Of a stretch of DNA of 64,000 bases, positions 14,731 to 51,390 are shown one piece after another. This DNA comes from Parcubacteria group bacterium. GTDB taxonomy: Bacteria > Patescibacteriota > Patescibacteriia > Buchananbacterales > UBA6539. A model generated the notes under the pieces. That model saw only the letters and a list, made by a program, of their open reading frames with translations. It did not search any database and was not told the DNA's origin. Location: positions 149,607 to 213,606 of the forward strand of contig NYZP01000001.1 in assembly GCA_002687175.1 (NCBI GenBank). Reading direction: 5' to 3'. The position numbers and the translations under genes are program-made. Every line of letters begins with the position of its first letter. Position 1 is the first letter of the stretch.

Positions 14731-14964
14731 CTATAGACCGAGAGCTTCCGTCAGTCCTTTTTGATCAAAACCAACCATAATTTTACCATCAATATCAATG
14801 ACCGGTACTCCCATTTGGCCTGATTTATCAATCATCTCTTGAGCCTTTTTTTGATCTAAGGATACATCAATCTCAGTATACTCAACATTATTTTCCTTAA
14901 AAAATGCTTTAGTTTTTTTACAGTAAACACAAGTTGGTGTTGAATAAATAGTTACATTCTTCAT
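14731..14964 (-). CDS. Glutaredoxin-like protein (NrdH/Grx-like)
   Basis: 77 aa with a TCVYCKK CxxC motif in a thioredoxin fold. Confidence 0.7.
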   Translation of the reverse strand: MKNVTIYSTPTCVYCKKTKAFFKENNVEYTEIDVSLDQKKAQEMIDKSGQMGVPVIDIDGKIMVGFDQKGLTEALGL

Positions 14965-15423
14965 AATTTTATCTTTAATAATTTCAACTTATTTAAAGCT
15001 TTCAGTTGTGATGTTTCAATATGAATTTCTGGTCTTTTTTTTCTAATTTTGGCAACTGCTTGTTTAACAGTTAAACCTTGACTGACAAAATAGGTGGCTA
15101 ACATTGTTGGCGCCCGACCATGACCATTCTTACAATGCATGTAAGTCTTGATTTTATTTTTTACTAAATAATCAATTTGTCGAATACCCAACAACAACTG
15201 ATGTTTTTTTGGTGGGTTGTGGTCTTTTGTAGGCAACCACAAAAAATAATCCACCCCCCCCCCAAGCAGCATCAATTCTTTTTTCTTCTAAACTAATATC
15301 AGCCCGAATGCCTTTTTCTAATAACTCTTTTTTGAAATGCATTTGACAGCAAGAATTACTGCCAACATAAATCATTGGGGTAATTTGATTATATTCCATT
15401 TTAACACCATGTTTTTTTGCCAT
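14961..15423 (-). pseudogene. Dual-specificity protein phosphatase (CX5R) split by a frameshift inside a G10 homopolymer; candidate phase-variable gene
   Basis: ORFs 15172..15423 and 14961..15275 overlap in different frames. The downstream one carries HCKNGHGRAPT (HCx5R). The two frames meet at C10 on the plus strand (15254-15263), which is G10 on the coding strand and encodes a Gly run. G9 or G12 would give one ~165-aa ORF. Confidence 0.6.
15254..15263. repeat. Homopolymeric C10/G10 tract inside a coding sequence
   Basis: Plus strand reads ccaCCCCCCCCCCaag. Confidence 0.9.
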
Positions 15424-15428
15424 ATCAT

Positions 15429-16394
15429 TTAGCCCTCAGCCGGACTTCCTTTCTTTAGATCTAAAATATAAGAATAAGCTGCTAAAGCGGCTCTAACACC
15501 GTCGCCAACCGAAATATTATTCTGTTTATAGGGATCATTGGAAACATCGCCAGCCGCAAAAATTCCTGGATGTGAAGTTTTGGCATGCATTGCATCAATT
15601 TTAACTTGTCCCCAATCGTCAATATCAACAACCCCTTTAACAATCTCTGAATTTGGTACCGAGCCAATTTCGACAAAAACTCCACCAACTTTTAACTCTT
15701 TTTCCTCCCCGCTTTTAGTGTCTTTATACTTCAAACCAGTTACCATTTTATCACCTAAAATCTCGACGGTCTCCGCGTTGGTAATAATTTCTACTTTAGA
15801 ATTTTTTTTGATTTGCGCTTGGGTTACTGGATCGCCGCTCAATTTATCACCACGTTGCAATAGATAAACTTTAGTGGCGTAGGCAGATAAATCAACGACT
15901 GCCTCCAAACCTGAATTACCACCACCAACCACCACCACATCCTTGTCTTTAAAAAGCGGGGCATCACAGGTTGAGCAGTATGATACTCCTTTACCGTTAT
16001 ACTCATCTTCGCCGGGTACTTTCAACTTTCGATGTCTGGCACCAGATGCTAAGATAATTGCTTTACCCATGTATTTACCTTCTCCAGTCTCAACTTCAAA
16101 ATCACATTCCCGATGATGGTCAAGACATTTATTATCAGAAATTTTTGTGACTTTTTCCGGCGACTTGATTGTTACCATATCAGGAAAACTTCTGGCATGT
16201 TCTTCTAATTTTTTGGCCAGATCAATACCGGAAATATTTTTTTCACCAATCCAATTGCCAATATCATCAGACACAATTGATTGACCACCAAACTGATCAG
16301 TAATTAATAAAGTTTTAAGTTGTTTCCTAGCAGTGTAAACCGTCGCCGCCACTCCGGCCGGTCCACCACCAATAATAATGACATCATACAGCAT
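15429..16394 (-). CDS. trxB: Thioredoxin-disulfide reductase
   Basis: N-terminal GGGPAG FAD motif, redox-active CSTCD and a second NAD(P) Rossmann motif (VVVVGGGNSG). Confidence 0.85.
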   Translation of the reverse strand: MLYDVIIIGGGPAGVAATVYTARKQLKTLLITDQFGGQSIVSDDIGNWIGEKNISGIDLAKKLEEHARSFPDMVTIKSPEKVTKISDNKCLDHHRECDFEVETGEGKYMGKAIILASGARHRKLKVPGEDEYNGKGVSYCSTCDAPLFKDKDVVVVGGGNSGLEAVVDLSAYATKVYLLQRGDKLSGDPVTQAQIKKNSKVEIITNAETVEILGDKMVTGLKYKDTKSGEEKELKVGGVFVEIGSVPNSEIVKGVVDIDDWGQVKIDAMHAKTSHPGIFAAGDVSNDPYKQNNISVGDGVRAALAAYSYILDLKKGSPAEG

Positions 16395-16404
16395 AATTTT
16401 ATAT

Positions 16405-16917
16405 TTATTCTTCTAGCAAGTAAGCTAATTCTTCGCCAAATTCAAGAGCCGCCTCTGGTCCTTTGGCGGTCACAATTTTACCATCCACTTCAACTGGCAT
16501 CCCGGTATAATCAGCCCCTTTGTCACGTAAATTTTGTTCTTGACTGGGAAATGACGTAGCTGTTTTACTGATCAGCAGTCCAGCATTGGCTAAGATTGAT
16601 GGCGCAATACAAATTGCCCCAACAATCTTTCCCGCTTGTTTAAAATCTTTAGCTAAGTTTAACACTGTTTCATTGTTGAAATAGTCAACTGCTCCGGCCC
16701 CACCAACAAATGCGACAGCATCAAAATCTTTTACCAAAATTTCGGGAATAGCTAAGTCTGGACTAATTTCCGTCCCCAGCTTTCCTTTGGCTTTATTCCT
16801 GGTTTTTGTTGCCACTTTAACCTCAATCTTTCTTTTGATTAGAACTTCTTTAGGCTTTAAAAGTTCTTCATCTCTAAAATTATTTTGGGCCACAATAAAT
16901 ACCACCTTTTTTGACAT
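16405..16917 (-). CDS. DJ-1/PfpI family protein
   Basis: AICIAP nucleophile elbow and FVGGAGA motif. 170 aa. Confidence 0.7.
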   Translation of the reverse strand: MSKKVVFIVAQNNFRDEELLKPKEVLIKRKIEVKVATKTRNKAKGKLGTEISPDLAIPEILVKDFDAVAFVGGAGAVDYFNNETVLNLAKDFKQAGKIVGAICIAPSILANAGLLISKTATSFPSQEQNLRDKGADYTGMPVEVDGKIVTAKGPEAALEFGEELAYLLEE

Positions 16918-21698: not shown

Positions 21699-22069
21699 TA
21701 TAATCCAAAAAATTTCTTAGCATCTTTAATATCTTTTTTAATTTGTTTTTGTAATTCCGCTATACTGGGAAATCTTTCCACTTCCCGGAATCTAAAAATT
21801 AATTTTTTTTCAACAGTTTTATTATATAAGTCTTGTCTTAAAGTTAATAAATGTGTTTCACAGGTAGCTCCTTTTAAACTAAAAGTTTTGGTCGGTCCTA
21901 AATGGGTGATCCCGGGATAAAATTTTTCTTTAATTTTAATTAAAGAAAAATATACTCCCCACTGCTTCTTCTTTATACTGTTAGGAACTGCAATATTAAT
22001 AGTTGGAAAACCTAACTTTTTTCCCTGACGCTTACCTTTTTTTACCTTGCCTGATAAAGTAAGAAACAT
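21698..22069 (-). CDS. Riboflavin kinase (monofunctional, RibF C-terminal-domain-like)
   Basis: GKRQGKKLGFPTINI...GVYFS...GITHLGPTKTF....ETHLL. Confidence 0.6.
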   Translation of the reverse strand: MFLTLSGKVKKGKRQGKKLGFPTINIAVPNSIKKKQWGVYFSLIKIKEKFYPGITHLGPTKTFSLKGATCETHLLTLRQDLYNKTVEKKLIFRFREVERFPSIAELQKQIKKDIKDAKKFFGL

Positions 22070-42497: not shown

Positions 42498-42522
42498 AAT
42501 TTTTACTAAAATAAGCCATCCG

Positions 42523-42594
42523 CTCCGAGGGCCGGATTCGAACCGGCAACCAATTGATTAACAGTCAACTGCTCTACCATTGAGCTACCTCGGA
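42523..42594 (-). tRNA. tRNA-Asn(GTT), copy A
   Basis: Minus strand reads TCCGAGGTAGCTCAATGGTAGAGCAGTTGACTGTTAATCAATTGGTTGCCGGTTCGAATCCGGCCCTCGGAG. Anticodon loop is CUGUUAA. Confidence 0.85.
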
Positions 42595-42683
42595 GCACAT
42601 GGCTCATTTTTTACTCTATTGCGCTATATTCTAATTTTAAAGTCTTTGACGGAAACCGGTCGGTCAGAAACGCTTCCGGTCTC

Positions 42684-42755
42684 CTCCGGGGGTCGGATTC
42701 GAACCGACAACCAATTGATTAACAGTCAACTGCTCTACCGTTGAGCTACCCCGGA
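42684..42755 (-). tRNA. tRNA-Asn(GTT), copy B (variant stems)
   Basis: Same fold with compensatory changes (CCCCGGA..GTCGG/CCGAC). Confidence 0.8.
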
Positions 42756-42845
42756 GCACATGGCTCATTTTTTTGCTCTACAAACTATATTTTAAATTTT
42801 CAAGCCCCTGACAGGAACCGGTCGCTTTGGAAAGCGTCCGATCTC

Positions 42846-42917
42846 CTCCGAGGGCCGGATTCGAACCGGCAACCAATTGATTAACAGTCAACTGCTCTAC
42901 CATTGAGCTACCTCGGA
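42846..42917 (-). tRNA. tRNA-Asn(GTT), copy C
   Basis: Identical to copy A. Confidence 0.85.
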
Positions 42918-42957
42918 ACTTAATTCTCCTTAATTACTTTTACCTTCTAAACCTTGA

Positions 42958-46185: not shown

Positions 46186-46208
46186 CTATAAATATTTATT
46201 AAGAACAA

Positions 46209-46247
46209 AGCGGAGGGGTGCCAGAGTGGTCGAATGGGACAGTCTTG
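46209..46247 (+). repeat. Exact 39-nt duplicate of the 5' half of tRNA-Ser(TGA), truncated inside the anticodon loop
   Basis: AGCGGAGGGGTGCCAGAGTGGTCGAATGGGACAGTCTTG is identical to 46541-46579. The copy ends after CTTG of the anticodon loop and is followed by two GC hairpins (CCCGCC-agag-GCGGG and TCCGCC-ttcg-GCGGA). Confidence 0.85.
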
Positions 46248-46295
46248 CCCGCCAGAGGCGGGTCCGCCTTCGGCGGAAAAACAACTACCTTGAGT

Positions 46296-46580
46296 ATGCC
46301 TTGCACTTATATTTTATATAGTAGGTCAACCAACAAATTTTATACTGGATCAAGCAGAGAAAAAGCCGCTAATAATCGTTTAAAATCACATAACGCCGGA
46401 AAAACTAAATCGACAAAAGCTGGCCGTCCCTGGATAATTATTCATCAAGAAAAATACCAAAATTATACTGATGCCAGAAAAAGAGAAATTTTTTTAAAAT
46501 CAGGTCAAGGACGCAAATATATTAAAACTTTAAACAGCAGAGCGGAGGGGTGCCAGAGTGGTCGAATGGGACAGTCTTGA
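46296..46580 (+). CDS. GIY-YIG nuclease family protein (~94 aa); its 3' end overlaps the 5' half of tRNA-Ser
   Basis: MPCTYILYSRSTNKFYTGSSREKAANNRLKSHNAGK...RPWIIIHQEKYQNYTDARKREIFLKSGQGRKYI gives the GIY...YIG...R...E...N pattern. Confidence 0.55.
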   Translation: MPCTYILYSRSTNKFYTGSSREKAANNRLKSHNAGKTKSTKAGRPWIIIHQEKYQNYTDARKREIFLKSGQGRKYIKTLNSRAEGCQSGRMGQS

Positions 46581-48119: not shown

Positions 48120-48469
48120 GCGGCGCGCCAACTTCGTTGGCACGAAATTCGGCGACGGCGGAAAGCGAGGGCGGGCAAAAATTCCTTCCCCCCCCCAACC
48201 CCCTTCCTTTTTGCCCGCCCGAGCGTTGGGGTGGGAAGCGGCTCGTCTCTGCGTCAGCAGAGAAGCAAAGCTCGCAAAAATTGTTTCCTTAATTAAAATT
48301 TGCGCGCGCCCATTAAAAGAAAAAGAAATTTTTGCGAGCTTTGCTGGCCGCCGTCAGGCGGCGAGCCGATGGGCGGGTTCACTCAGCGAAATCCGTAGGA
48401 TTTTGCTCAAACATTGTTCGAACTTCGTCCAAAAAACACCGCCACTATTAAAAATCTAAAAAATTATTT
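48120..48469. other. GC-rich, ORF-free, hairpin-dense block of undetermined family between convergent genes
   Basis: UUCG hairpin GCCAAC-ttcg-GTTGGC. Long stem GCGAGGGCGGGCAAAAA...TTTTTGCCCGCCCGAGCG enclosing a C9 run (..TTCCCCCCCCCAACCCCC..). CTCTGC-gtca-GCAGAG and GCCGCC-gtca-GGCGGC hairpins. A ~20-bp long-range pair GAAGCAAAGCTCGCAAAAATT / AATTTTTGCGAGCTTTGC. Shares CCGCCGTCAGGC and the CCCCCAA(A)CCCCC motif with block 24766-25213. Confidence 0.4.
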
Positions 48470-51168: not shown

Positions 51169-51293
51169 GGGCTTGTAGCTCAGGGGTAGAGCGTCTGAGA
51201 CCAACATTTTAATCAATCAGTGAGGGTACCCGATCTGTGCGATGATGTTGGAAAATCAGAAAGTCAGGGGTTCAAATCCCTTCAGGCCCACCA
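51169..51293 (+). tRNA. tRNA (Ile-like acceptor and T-arm) with a ~50-nt intervening sequence in the anticodon loop; anticodon unresolved
   Basis: GGGCTTG-TA-GCTCAGGGGTAGAGC-G-TCTGA-[57 nt: GACCAACAT...ATGTTGGAAAA]-TCAGA-AAGTC-AGGGGTTCAAATCCCTT-CAGGCCC-A-CCA. The insert has a 7-bp stem CCAACAT/ATGTTGG. Followed by TTTTTT. Confidence 0.55.
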
Positions 51294-51310: not shown

Positions 51311-51390
51311 GCTGGGGTAGCTCAGTGGTAGAGCTGTTGACTTCTTCGGATAGTTGATGGTCGGGGGTTCAAATCCCTCCTCCAGCTCCA
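51311..51390 (+). tRNA. Atypical tRNA, candidate tRNA-Arg(UCG) with an apparently extended (8-bp, G:U-rich) anticodon stem
   Basis: GCTGGGG-TA-GCTC-AGTGGTA-GAGC, anticodon loop CUUCGGA, GGGGG-TTCAAAT-CCCTC T-arm, CTCCAGC-T-CCA. There are 28 nt between the D and T stems where 22-23 are expected. Direct repeat GTTGA...GTTGA. Confidence 0.45.

What the first reader, a model, noticed from the sequence alone, without database searches (positions are those of the whole stretch)
14961..15423. G10 homopolymer splits a dual-specificity phosphatase gene: candidate phase-variable contingency locus
A perfect 10-nt poly-G (coding strand) lies exactly at the junction of two overlapping ORFs. Together they make a ~165-aa HCx5R protein phosphatase, and G9 or G12 would restore one frame. 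Long G/C homopolymers are rare in an AT-rich genome and are the classic slipped-strand switch. It could equally be a sequencing error at a homopolymer.
Basis: seen in the sequence. Interest (0 to 1): 0.65.

Follow-up and report, generated by a model that had tools for sequence, protein, structure and literature searches.

The report
Unstable poly-G tract splitting a phosphatase gene
A run of ten G's breaks a small phosphatase gene in an uncultured marine Parcubacteria genome, and other assemblies of the same population carry nine G's and an intact gene, so this is probably a slippage on/off site, though only raw reads can rule out a sequencing artefact.

Summary
C10 lies at window 15254-15263 (G10 on the coding minus strand), inside the overlap of an 83-aa and a 104-aa ORF. 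G9 gives a 153-aa HCx5R dual-specificity phosphatase, not about 165 aa. The source is a marine Parcubacteria (CPR) MAG.

All 25 aligned homologues have one Gly at this site, and the closest orthologue reads TGG GGC GTG. The tract is therefore a lineage-specific expansion.

Five assemblies of the same population span the site. The four I could align are identical over 4.2-6.4 kb except at the tract. Two have G10, two give the G9 in-frame product, and one has G9 plus an extra T 9 nt upstream. Two further assemblies break inside the tract. A G9 control tract at 48188-48196 has the same length in all three assemblies that cover it. Among 304 homopolymer runs, no other gene in the window is broken.

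The best reading (about 0.5) is a real G9/G10 length polymorphism that turns the phosphatase on and off. No reads were available, so error and a recent pseudogene remain open. Adaptive maintenance is not shown. If real, it is a new member of a known kind (poly-G phase variation). Interest is modest.

The parts
15254..15263 (-). Poly-G tract: G10 on the coding strand, C10 on the + strand. This is the frameshift site, covering codons 54-57 of the gene.
   Evidence: The length differs among assemblies: G10 in the window and L002, G9 in L001, and G9 plus a T insertion 9 nt upstream in L003.
14961..15423 (-). Dual-specificity/PTP-fold phosphatase gene, out of frame at G10. G9 gives a 153-aa product.
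   Evidence: Pfam PF22785 49.8 bits, PF22784 44.1 bits, PF00782 35.3 bits, all above their cut-offs. There are 1228 homologues of about 150 aa. AF2 pLDDT 87.6. Foldseek TM 0.82 to DUSP23/VHZ and about 0.80 to PTPMT1.
15172..15423 (-). Upstream ORF of the G10 allele: 83 aa, of which 57 are native, followed by an out-of-frame tail.
   Evidence: Exactly this product is also called on ENA contig ERZ11848503 NODE_12174.
14961..15275 (-). Downstream ORF of the G10 allele (104 aa from a TTG). It carries the catalytic part and is annotated at NCBI as the 103-aa MAF13428.1.
15114..15137 (-). P-loop HCKNGHGR, the catalytic Cys-x5-Arg motif. It is intact downstream of the frameshift.
   Evidence: Read from the sequence. 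H96, C97, G100, H101, G102 and R103 are invariant in the 26-sequence alignment.
14961..14964 (-). ATGA overlap of the phosphatase stop codon with the start codon of the NrdH/glutaredoxin-like gene. No Shine-Dalgarno sequence is visible before that start.
   Evidence: Sequence and ORF coordinates. That the two genes are translationally coupled is an inference.
14731..14964 (-). NrdH/glutaredoxin-like redoxin gene (77 aa), immediately downstream.
   Evidence: MAF13427.1, named NrdH-redoxin.
15429..16394 (-). Thioredoxin-reductase-like flavoprotein gene (321 aa). Its stop codon is followed by a 5-nt spacer and then the phosphatase start.
   Evidence: PF07992, PF13738, PF00070. The same gene precedes the orthologue in L004.
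16405..16917 (-). DJ-1/PfpI family gene (170 aa), the probable first gene of the operon. A promoter-like site lies at 16976-16947.
48188..48196 (.). Control tract: an intergenic C9 in the loop of a hairpin. Its length is the same in the three assemblies that cover it.

Best explanation
The tract is a slippage-prone poly-G run that arose recently in this Parcubacteria lineage, inside the loop-coding part of a small Cys-based (HCx5R) phosphatase gene. That gene sits in a DJ-1 / thioredoxin-reductase / phosphatase / NrdH-redoxin operon.

Gain or loss of one G during replication toggles the gene between G9 and G10. G9 is in frame and gives a 153-aa enzyme with one extra Gly in a loop. G10 is out of frame and gives an 83-aa truncated product. 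Both states appear to exist in the natural population and were captured by different assemblies.

The phosphatase stop codon overlaps the start codon of the redoxin gene, which has no visible Shine-Dalgarno sequence. The OFF state may therefore also lower redoxin translation.

Shown: the tract, the frame arithmetic, the family and fold, the derived nature of the tract, and the length differences among assemblies.

Inferred: that the differences are biological rather than technical, that the switch is reversible, and the polar effect on the redoxin gene.

Not shown: that switchability is selected for.
For: 1. G9 and G12 restore one ORF with an intact HCKNGHGR motif. The G9 protein keeps all 22 invariant residues of the family. 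It models confidently (pLDDT 87.6, pTM 0.84), with W54-G56 in the loop 45-58, and it matches the DSP fold.

2. All 25 aligned homologues have a single Gly at the site. The closest orthologue, which also lies downstream of trxB, reads TGG GGC GTG. Two others read GGA and GGC. None of 14 related loci (about 85 kb) has a G/C run of 7 or more. The tract must therefore have grown in this lineage, which is what slippage does.

3. Five assemblies span the site:
- the window: G10;
- ERZ11848503 NODE_12174: G10;
- TARA_SAMEA2619974 scaffold_6: G9;
- a second indexed contig of 20-50 kb, which carries the exact G9 product;
- the UBA MAG contig DJKP01000086: G9 plus a T insertion.
Over the 4.2-6.4 kb that I could align in three of them, the only differences from the window are at the tract.

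4. The contig of the Tara CEPX assembly starts with exactly G9 followed by TGGATT. That is where a de Bruijn graph would branch if both T-G9 and G-G9 k-mers were present. A Logan contig starts inside the tract.

5. The control G9 tract at 48188 has the same length in three assemblies, with no other differences except at the very end of contig L025. Of 304 homopolymer runs of 6 nt or more in the window, only this locus gains an ORF from a one-base change. The assemblies therefore have no general homopolymer problem.

6. Two metaSPAdes-style assemblies of different data sets gave different lengths. This points to the data rather than the assembler.

7. According to PMC8808543, Illumina indels in homopolymers are a problem mainly above 14 bp.
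Against: - No reads were available, so heterogeneity within a sample is not demonstrated.
- Coverage is low where it is known (4.8x for L002; 2.2-2.4x for the contigs that end near both G tracts).
- Poly-G templates cause Illumina-specific artefacts (PMC9187656).
- A low-coverage assembly also breaks 31 nt from the control tract. This shows that G runs disturb assembly in themselves.
- I do not know which samples were shared between assemblies.
- The G9+T variant in the UBA MAG is not explained by simple slippage.
- The tract is absent from the nearest available orthologue, so there is no sign of long-term maintenance.
- The gene is cytoplasmic, which is not the usual class of phase-variable gene.
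- Only G9 and net-+1 products are on record. No G8, G11 or G12 products were found.
Confidence: 0.5

Rival explanations
1. Recent pseudogene. The true and fixed state is G10 (net +1), the phosphatase is dead, and the G9 assemblies reflect -1 stutter or consensus error.
For: Three of the five spanning assemblies are out of frame by +1, including one with a different lesion (G9 plus a T insertion). Contraction by one base is the commonest PCR and sequencing stutter for homopolymers (my own knowledge). Genomes of this group are reduced, and the gene's neighbourhood is not conserved among relatives.
Against: The downstream 96 codons have no stop codon and keep every invariant residue, including the P-loop. 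Any inactivation is therefore very recent. Two assemblies independently give the exact in-frame product. The G9 control tract shows no such error.
Confidence: 0.2
2. Pure artefact. The organism has G9 and an intact gene, and G10 in the window is a homopolymer error of sequencing or assembly.
For: G9 gives an intact, well-modelled enzyme. Long G runs are known trouble spots for Illumina. Contigs break at or near both G tracts in low-coverage assemblies.
Against: A +1 error would have had to win the consensus independently in the window assembly and in ERZ11848503, and a net +1 would also have had to arise in the UBA assembly. Insertions are the rarer stutter direction (my own knowledge). No other homopolymer among 304 runs is broken in the window. 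The G9 control tract is stable in three assemblies.
Confidence: 0.17
3. Recoding. G10 is the genomic state, and full-length protein is made by +1 ribosomal slippage on GGG_G or by RNA-polymerase slippage on the G run.
For: A P-site tRNA-Gly can re-pair perfectly in the +1 frame within the run. That would give the same WGGVDYF product as G9 (read from the codons). An mRNA hairpin follows the tract (z = -3.1).
Against: No orthologue has a slippery site or split frames here, so nothing is conserved. A downstream hairpin is a stimulator of -1 shifts, not +1. Known transcriptional slippage uses A/T runs (my own knowledge). The existence of G9 DNA alleles makes recoding unnecessary.
Confidence: 0.05

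Closest known systems
Poly-G/C simple-sequence contingency loci of Campylobacter jejuni, Neisseria, Helicobacter and Bifidobacterium breve (intragenic G tracts of about 8-13 nt that switch genes ON and OFF by slipped-strand mispairing)
   Same: An intragenic G9/G10 tract in the first third of the ORF. A one-base length change toggles the frame. Different lengths occur in sequences from one otherwise identical population. The genome is AT-rich, so the tract stands out.
   Different: The host is an uncultured marine Parcubacteria (CPR) bacterium, for which I found no report of repeat-mediated phase variation. The target is a cytoplasmic phosphatase in a redox operon, not a surface, glycosylation or restriction-modification gene. 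The window holds no set of several such loci: there is one coding tract in 64 kb. Neither switching rate nor reversibility has been measured. The tract is not conserved in the nearest orthologue.
Homopolymer frameshift switches in metabolic or regulatory genes, for example the Mycobacterium tuberculosis glpK 7C tract and homopolymer variants across the M. tuberculosis complex
   Same: A cytoplasmic enzyme is reversibly inactivated by a one-base change in a G/C run. The evidence comes from comparing many sequenced samples.
   Different: Those cases rest on thousands of isolates and on experiments (papers listed). This one rests on five metagenome assemblies without reads.
Atypical dual-specificity phosphatases of the PTP fold: DUSP23/VHZ, PTPMT1, Tk-PTP, SsoPTP (Pfam PF22785, PF22784, PF00782)
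   Same: About 150 aa, an HCx5R P-loop, and the DSP fold (TM about 0.8). Profile E-values are 1e-15 to 1e-12 to PDB 25xa, PTPMT1 (3rgo) and Tk-PTP (5z5b).
   Different: Identity to any solved structure is 26% or less. The substrate is unknown: protein, lipid (as for PTPMT1) or sugar phosphate. Neighbouring genes vary among relatives: trxB here and in L004, PfkB with aldolase and transketolase in L005, L006 and L010, and a GH1-like gene in L011 and L015 (some neighbours were identified by motif only).

Membership tests
Simple-sequence-repeat phase-variable (contingency) locus | A hypermutable repeat (a G/C homopolymer of about 8 nt or more) within the ORF or promoter | tested here: met
   G10 at 15254-15263, inside codons 54-57.
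Simple-sequence-repeat phase-variable (contingency) locus | A change of one repeat unit switches between a full-length and a truncated product | tested here: met
   G9 and G12 give 153 and 154 aa. G8, G10, G11 and G13 truncate at 83-86 aa.
Simple-sequence-repeat phase-variable (contingency) locus | Tract-length polymorphism within a clonal population or between closely related strains | tested here: inconclusive
   Five assemblies of one otherwise identical population give G10 (2), the G9 product (2) and G9+T (1). Two more break in the tract. The control G9 tract is invariant. No read-level data were available, so a technical origin is not excluded.
Simple-sequence-repeat phase-variable (contingency) locus | High-frequency, reversible switching with a phenotype | not testable with these tools
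   This needs cultures or deep error-corrected sequencing. The organism is uncultured.
Simple-sequence-repeat phase-variable (contingency) locus | The repeat is maintained in related strains or species, which would be evidence of selection for mutability | tested here: not met
   The closest orthologue (71% aa identity) has TGG GGC GTG (G4). The 25 aligned homologues have one Gly. There are no G/C runs of 7 or more in 14 related loci. Caveat: no relative closer than 71% was available.
Cys-based PTP-fold / dual-specificity phosphatase superfamily | The P-loop signature HCx5R, with the catalytic Cys and Arg | tested here: met
   HCKNGHGR at 15137-15114. H, C, G, H, G and R are invariant in 26 sequences.
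Cys-based PTP-fold / dual-specificity phosphatase superfamily | Profile match above the curated threshold | tested here: met
   PF22785 49.8 bits against a cut-off of 27; PF22784 44.1 against 27; PF00782 35.3 against 33.5.
Cys-based PTP-fold / dual-specificity phosphatase superfamily | The DSP fold | tested here: met
   AF2 model with pLDDT 87.6 and pTM 0.84. Foldseek TM 0.82 with rmsd 2.1 A to DUSP23 (2img), and TM 0.80 to PTPMT1 (3rgo).
Cys-based PTP-fold / dual-specificity phosphatase superfamily | Phosphatase activity and a known substrate | not testable with these tools
   No biochemistry was possible. Gene neighbourhoods among relatives are inconsistent.
Programmed +1 ribosomal frameshift genes (prfB-like) | A shift site and split frames conserved among orthologues | tested here: not met
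   All homologues are single-frame proteins of about 150 aa without a G run at the site.

The most novel reading that the evidence does not exclude
A true contingency locus in a CPR/Patescibacteria bacterium. On this reading, selection keeps a poly-G switch that stochastically turns off a redox-sensitive Cys-phosphatase and, through translational coupling, the downstream NrdH-like redoxin of a thioredoxin-system operon. This would give an ultra-small, probably episymbiotic marine cell bet-hedging over its redox or phospho-signalling state. It would be the first repeat-mediated phase variation described in this radiation.
Probability: 0.15. Interest if true: 0.55.

Novelty: new member of a known kind. 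Interest (0 to 1): 0.35.

Why it matters
If the polymorphism is real, slipped-strand on/off switching also operates in natural populations of uncultured, genome-reduced CPR bacteria. That mechanism has been studied almost only in host-adapted pathogens and commensals. Here it would act on a signalling or redox enzyme rather than a surface structure. In the literature library I found no paper linking repeat-mediated phase variation with Patescibacteria or Saccharibacteria.

There is also a practical lesson. The NCBI record annotates only the 103-aa C-terminal fragment as a hypothetical protein. Public assemblies of the same population disagree at exactly this base. Gene catalogues built from them therefore hold three different products for one gene.

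If it is an artefact or a fresh pseudogene, it is ordinary.

Tried and rejected
- I scanned the JGI metagenome contigs twice: once with both flanks and a variable G gap, and once with the left flank plus G6. I scanned the GTDB genome contigs once with the flank pattern. All gave 0 hits, so no further tract lengths came from there.
- A protein-based scan of the GTDB genomes returned only relatives of 65% identity or less. The species itself is not represented.
- Exact-product look-ups for G6, G7, G8, G11, G12 and G13 alleles found none on record.
- Look-ups through trxB and DJ-1 for contigs ending at the tract from the upstream side gave no new tract data.
- The look-up of the NCBI 103-aa product found no indexed contig, so the window's own record could not be re-read.
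- Recoding was considered and rejected as the main explanation. Nothing is conserved at the site, and the downstream hairpin suits -1 shifts, not +1.
- A general homopolymer error problem in this assembly was rejected. Of 304 runs of 6 nt or more, only this locus is frame-broken. The hit at 21707 merely fuses two neighbouring genes.
- I tried to infer a substrate from gene neighbourhoods. It failed because the contexts differ among relatives.
- Rfam found no family in the GC-rich region around the second tract.

Full report
**Observation**

The + strand of the window has ten C's at 15254-15263, which is G10 on the minus strand. Two minus-strand ORFs overlap there: 15423..15172 (83 aa, ATG start) and 15275..14961 (104 aa). 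I replaced the tract in silico by G8 to G13. G9 and G12 give one ORF of 153 or 154 aa with the motif HCKNGHGR. All other lengths truncate the product at 83-86 aa. The estimate of about 165 aa is slightly high.

The window is 36.3% G+C. Its only G/C runs longer than 6 nt are this one and a C9 at 48188-48196. A first-order Markov model expects 0.037 runs of 10 or more per window. GGG makes up 9.6% of Gly codons, and no other in-frame GGGGGG occurs in 50 long ORFs.

**What the gene is**

The G9 product matches three Pfam families above their cut-offs: PF22785, PF22784 and PF00782. It has 1228 homologues of about 150 aa, mostly from Patescibacteria and Woesearchaeota metagenome bins. A profile of 26 of them hits PDB 25xa, PTPMT1 and Tk-PTP at E-values of 1e-15 to 1e-12.

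An AlphaFold model has pLDDT 87.6 and pTM 0.84. It superposes on DUSP23/VHZ with TM about 0.82 and on PTPMT1 with TM about 0.80. The residues encoded by the tract (W54-G56) lie in the loop 45-58 between two strands. The substrate cannot be told.

In this genome the gene sits between a thioredoxin-reductase-like gene, 5 nt upstream, and an NrdH/glutaredoxin-like gene whose ATG overlaps the phosphatase TGA (ATGA at 14961-14964). A DJ-1/PfpI gene and a promoter-like site lie further upstream. No terminator-like site lies within the cluster. Relatives have other neighbours, such as PfkB with aldolase and transketolase, or a GH1-like gene.

**Source**

The 103-aa C-terminal fragment is identical to MAF13428.1 of a 'Parcubacteria group bacterium' MAG, on a 224-kb contig. 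A neighbouring protein clusters with a Tara Oceans gene labelled TARA_037_MES_0.1-0.22.

**The tract is derived**

In an alignment of 25 homologues, every sequence has a single Gly where the window encodes GG (G9) or GGG (G12). The closest orthologue has 71% aa identity and also lies downstream of trxB. It reads TGG GGC GTG. Two others read GGA and GGC. None of 14 related loci, about 85 kb in total, has a G/C run of 7 or more. The run must therefore have lengthened in this lineage by at least one whole codon. This is independent evidence that slippage really happened at this spot.

**Comparison of assemblies**

Exact-sequence look-ups showed that the G9 product (153 aa) is on record from ENA on two contigs. 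The G10-type 83-aa product is on record from ENA, and a near-identical variant from NCBI. I fetched the DNA and aligned it to the window.

| Assembly | Length aligned | State at the tract |
|---|---|---|
| Window (the Parcubacteria MAG) | reference | G10 |
| TARA_SAMEA2619974 scaffold_6 (242 kb) | 6.46 kb | G9, in frame |
| ERZ11848503 NODE_12174 (coverage 4.8) | 4.25 kb | G10 |
| UBA MAG contig DJKP01000086 | 6.25 kb | G9 plus one extra T 9 nt upstream, net +1 |
| Second indexed contig, 20-50 kb | DNA not shown by the tool | carries the exact G9 product |

Each of the three aligned contigs is identical to the window everywhere outside the tract and the T insertion.

Two more assemblies break inside the tract. 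A Tara CEPX contig starts with exactly G9 followed by TGGATT, and a Logan contig starts with G6. A start at exactly G9 is where a de Bruijn graph would fork if reads with T-G9 and with G-G9 were both present. This last point is my inference.

No product of a G6, G7, G8, G11, G12 or G13 allele is on record.

**Controls**

- The intergenic C9 at 48188-48196 has length 9 in the window, in a MEGAHIT contig of ERR594345 and in the UBA MAG. Over 13.0 and 7.9 kb there are no other differences, except at the very end of the first contig.
- I changed each of the 304 homopolymer runs of 6 nt or more by one base. Only the phosphatase locus gains an ORF this way. The hit at 21707 merely joins two adjacent genes. 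The window assembly therefore has no general homopolymer defect.
- One low-coverage assembly (about 2x) ends 21 nt from the phosphatase tract and 31 nt from the control tract. G runs therefore disturb assembly in themselves.

**Interpretation**

Under an error-only model, the wrong length would have had to win the consensus in at least two independent assemblies, while a same-base tract one nucleotide shorter was always assembled correctly. Illumina homopolymer indels are described as a problem mainly above 14 bp (PMC8808543). G-tract templates do, however, show peculiar artefacts (PMC9187656).

I therefore favour, at about 0.5, a real G9/G10 polymorphism. That makes the gene mechanically phase-variable. 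The rivals are:

- A recent fixed G10 pseudogene (0.2). The intact downstream half argues against it.
- A true G9 with recurrent +1 error (0.17). The number of independent +1 outcomes and the control tract argue against it.
- Recoding (0.05). Nothing is conserved at the site.

Whether switchability is selected for is open. The tract is absent from the nearest orthologue, and the 64-kb window has only this one coding tract. The G9+T haplotype in the UBA MAG is unexplained.

**A possible consequence**

The redoxin gene lacks a visible Shine-Dalgarno sequence and overlaps the phosphatase stop codon. In the G10 state, ribosomes stop about 210 nt earlier. This may reduce redoxin translation. That is an inference and was not tested.

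**Comparison with known systems**

The locus works like the intragenic poly-G switches of Campylobacter, Neisseria, Helicobacter and Bifidobacterium. It meets the sequence-level criteria for membership: the repeat, and the ON/OFF frame logic. The population criterion is met only at the assembly level. The conservation criterion is not met, and switching itself cannot be tested here.

I found no paper in the library that links repeat-mediated phase variation with Patescibacteria or Saccharibacteria. One CPR study notes that Saccharibacteria lack MutS and MutL (PMC8406219). The mismatch-repair status of this Parcubacteria genome is unknown.

**Verdict**

If real, this is a new member of a known kind. 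Interest is about 0.35. Read pile-ups at this tract against the control tract would settle the matter.

Noticed in passing
window 48120-48420: A GC-rich intergenic island lies between a glycosyltransferase-like gene and a DsbA-like gene. It has two long hairpins: arms 48162-48181 / 48208-48227 and a perfect 19-nt pair 48264-48282 / 48327-48345. The window's only other long G/C run (C9, then AA, then C5) sits in the loop of the first hairpin. No Rfam family matches. The C9 length is the same in three assemblies.
   Followed up: partly
L003 3152 (equivalent to window about 15272): The UBA MAG (GCA_002434675.1, DJKP01000086) has G9 plus an inserted T 9 nt upstream of the tract (ATTGTATGCTGCTT-G9). 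Its total length equals that of the G10 allele, and it is also out of frame. This could be a second real lesion, a complex slippage event or a CLC assembler artefact. It is unexplained.
   Followed up: partly
window 51169-51290: An Rfam tRNA match (53.7 bits) spans the full model but is 122 nt long, with 57 nt where the anticodon loop should have 7. That implies an insert of about 50 nt, possibly an intron. ARAGORN does not call it. The adjacent tRNA-Lys (51311-51390) also has an enlarged anticodon region.
   Followed up: partly
window 42522-42918: There are three tandem copies of tRNA-Asn (GTT) at a spacing of about 161 nt.
   Followed up: no
window 46189-46580; L025 13043-13060: A MEGAHIT contig of ERR594345 is identical to the window over 13 kb. 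It then diverges at 46189-46208 and ends there. This is just beside an ORF at 46218-46580 that looks like a GIY-YIG nuclease by motif (not tested against Pfam) and lies next to two tRNA-Ser genes. It may be a strain-variable or mobile insertion.
   Followed up: no
window 1-64000: Gene orientation is extremely biased: about 49 kb of long ORFs lie on the minus strand and about 5 kb on the plus strand. GC skew is uniformly negative on the plus strand. Both are consistent with one replichore with co-oriented genes.
   Followed up: no
window 15150-15290 (minus strand): The mRNA around and just 3' of the G run folds more stably than shuffled sequences (-37.2 kcal/mol, z = -3.1). A 10-bp hairpin begins a few nucleotides after the tract, and part of the G run pairs with a downstream CCCACC. 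Its relevance to slippage is unknown.
   Followed up: partly
L005, L006, L010, L017: In several relatives the phosphatase homologue directly follows a PfkB-family sugar kinase. In L005 and L006, where Pfam calls are on record, an FBP aldolase and a transketolase also precede it. In L010 and L017 the kinase was recognised by sequence motif only. For part of the family this hints at a role in carbohydrate phosphate metabolism rather than protein dephosphorylation.
   Followed up: partly
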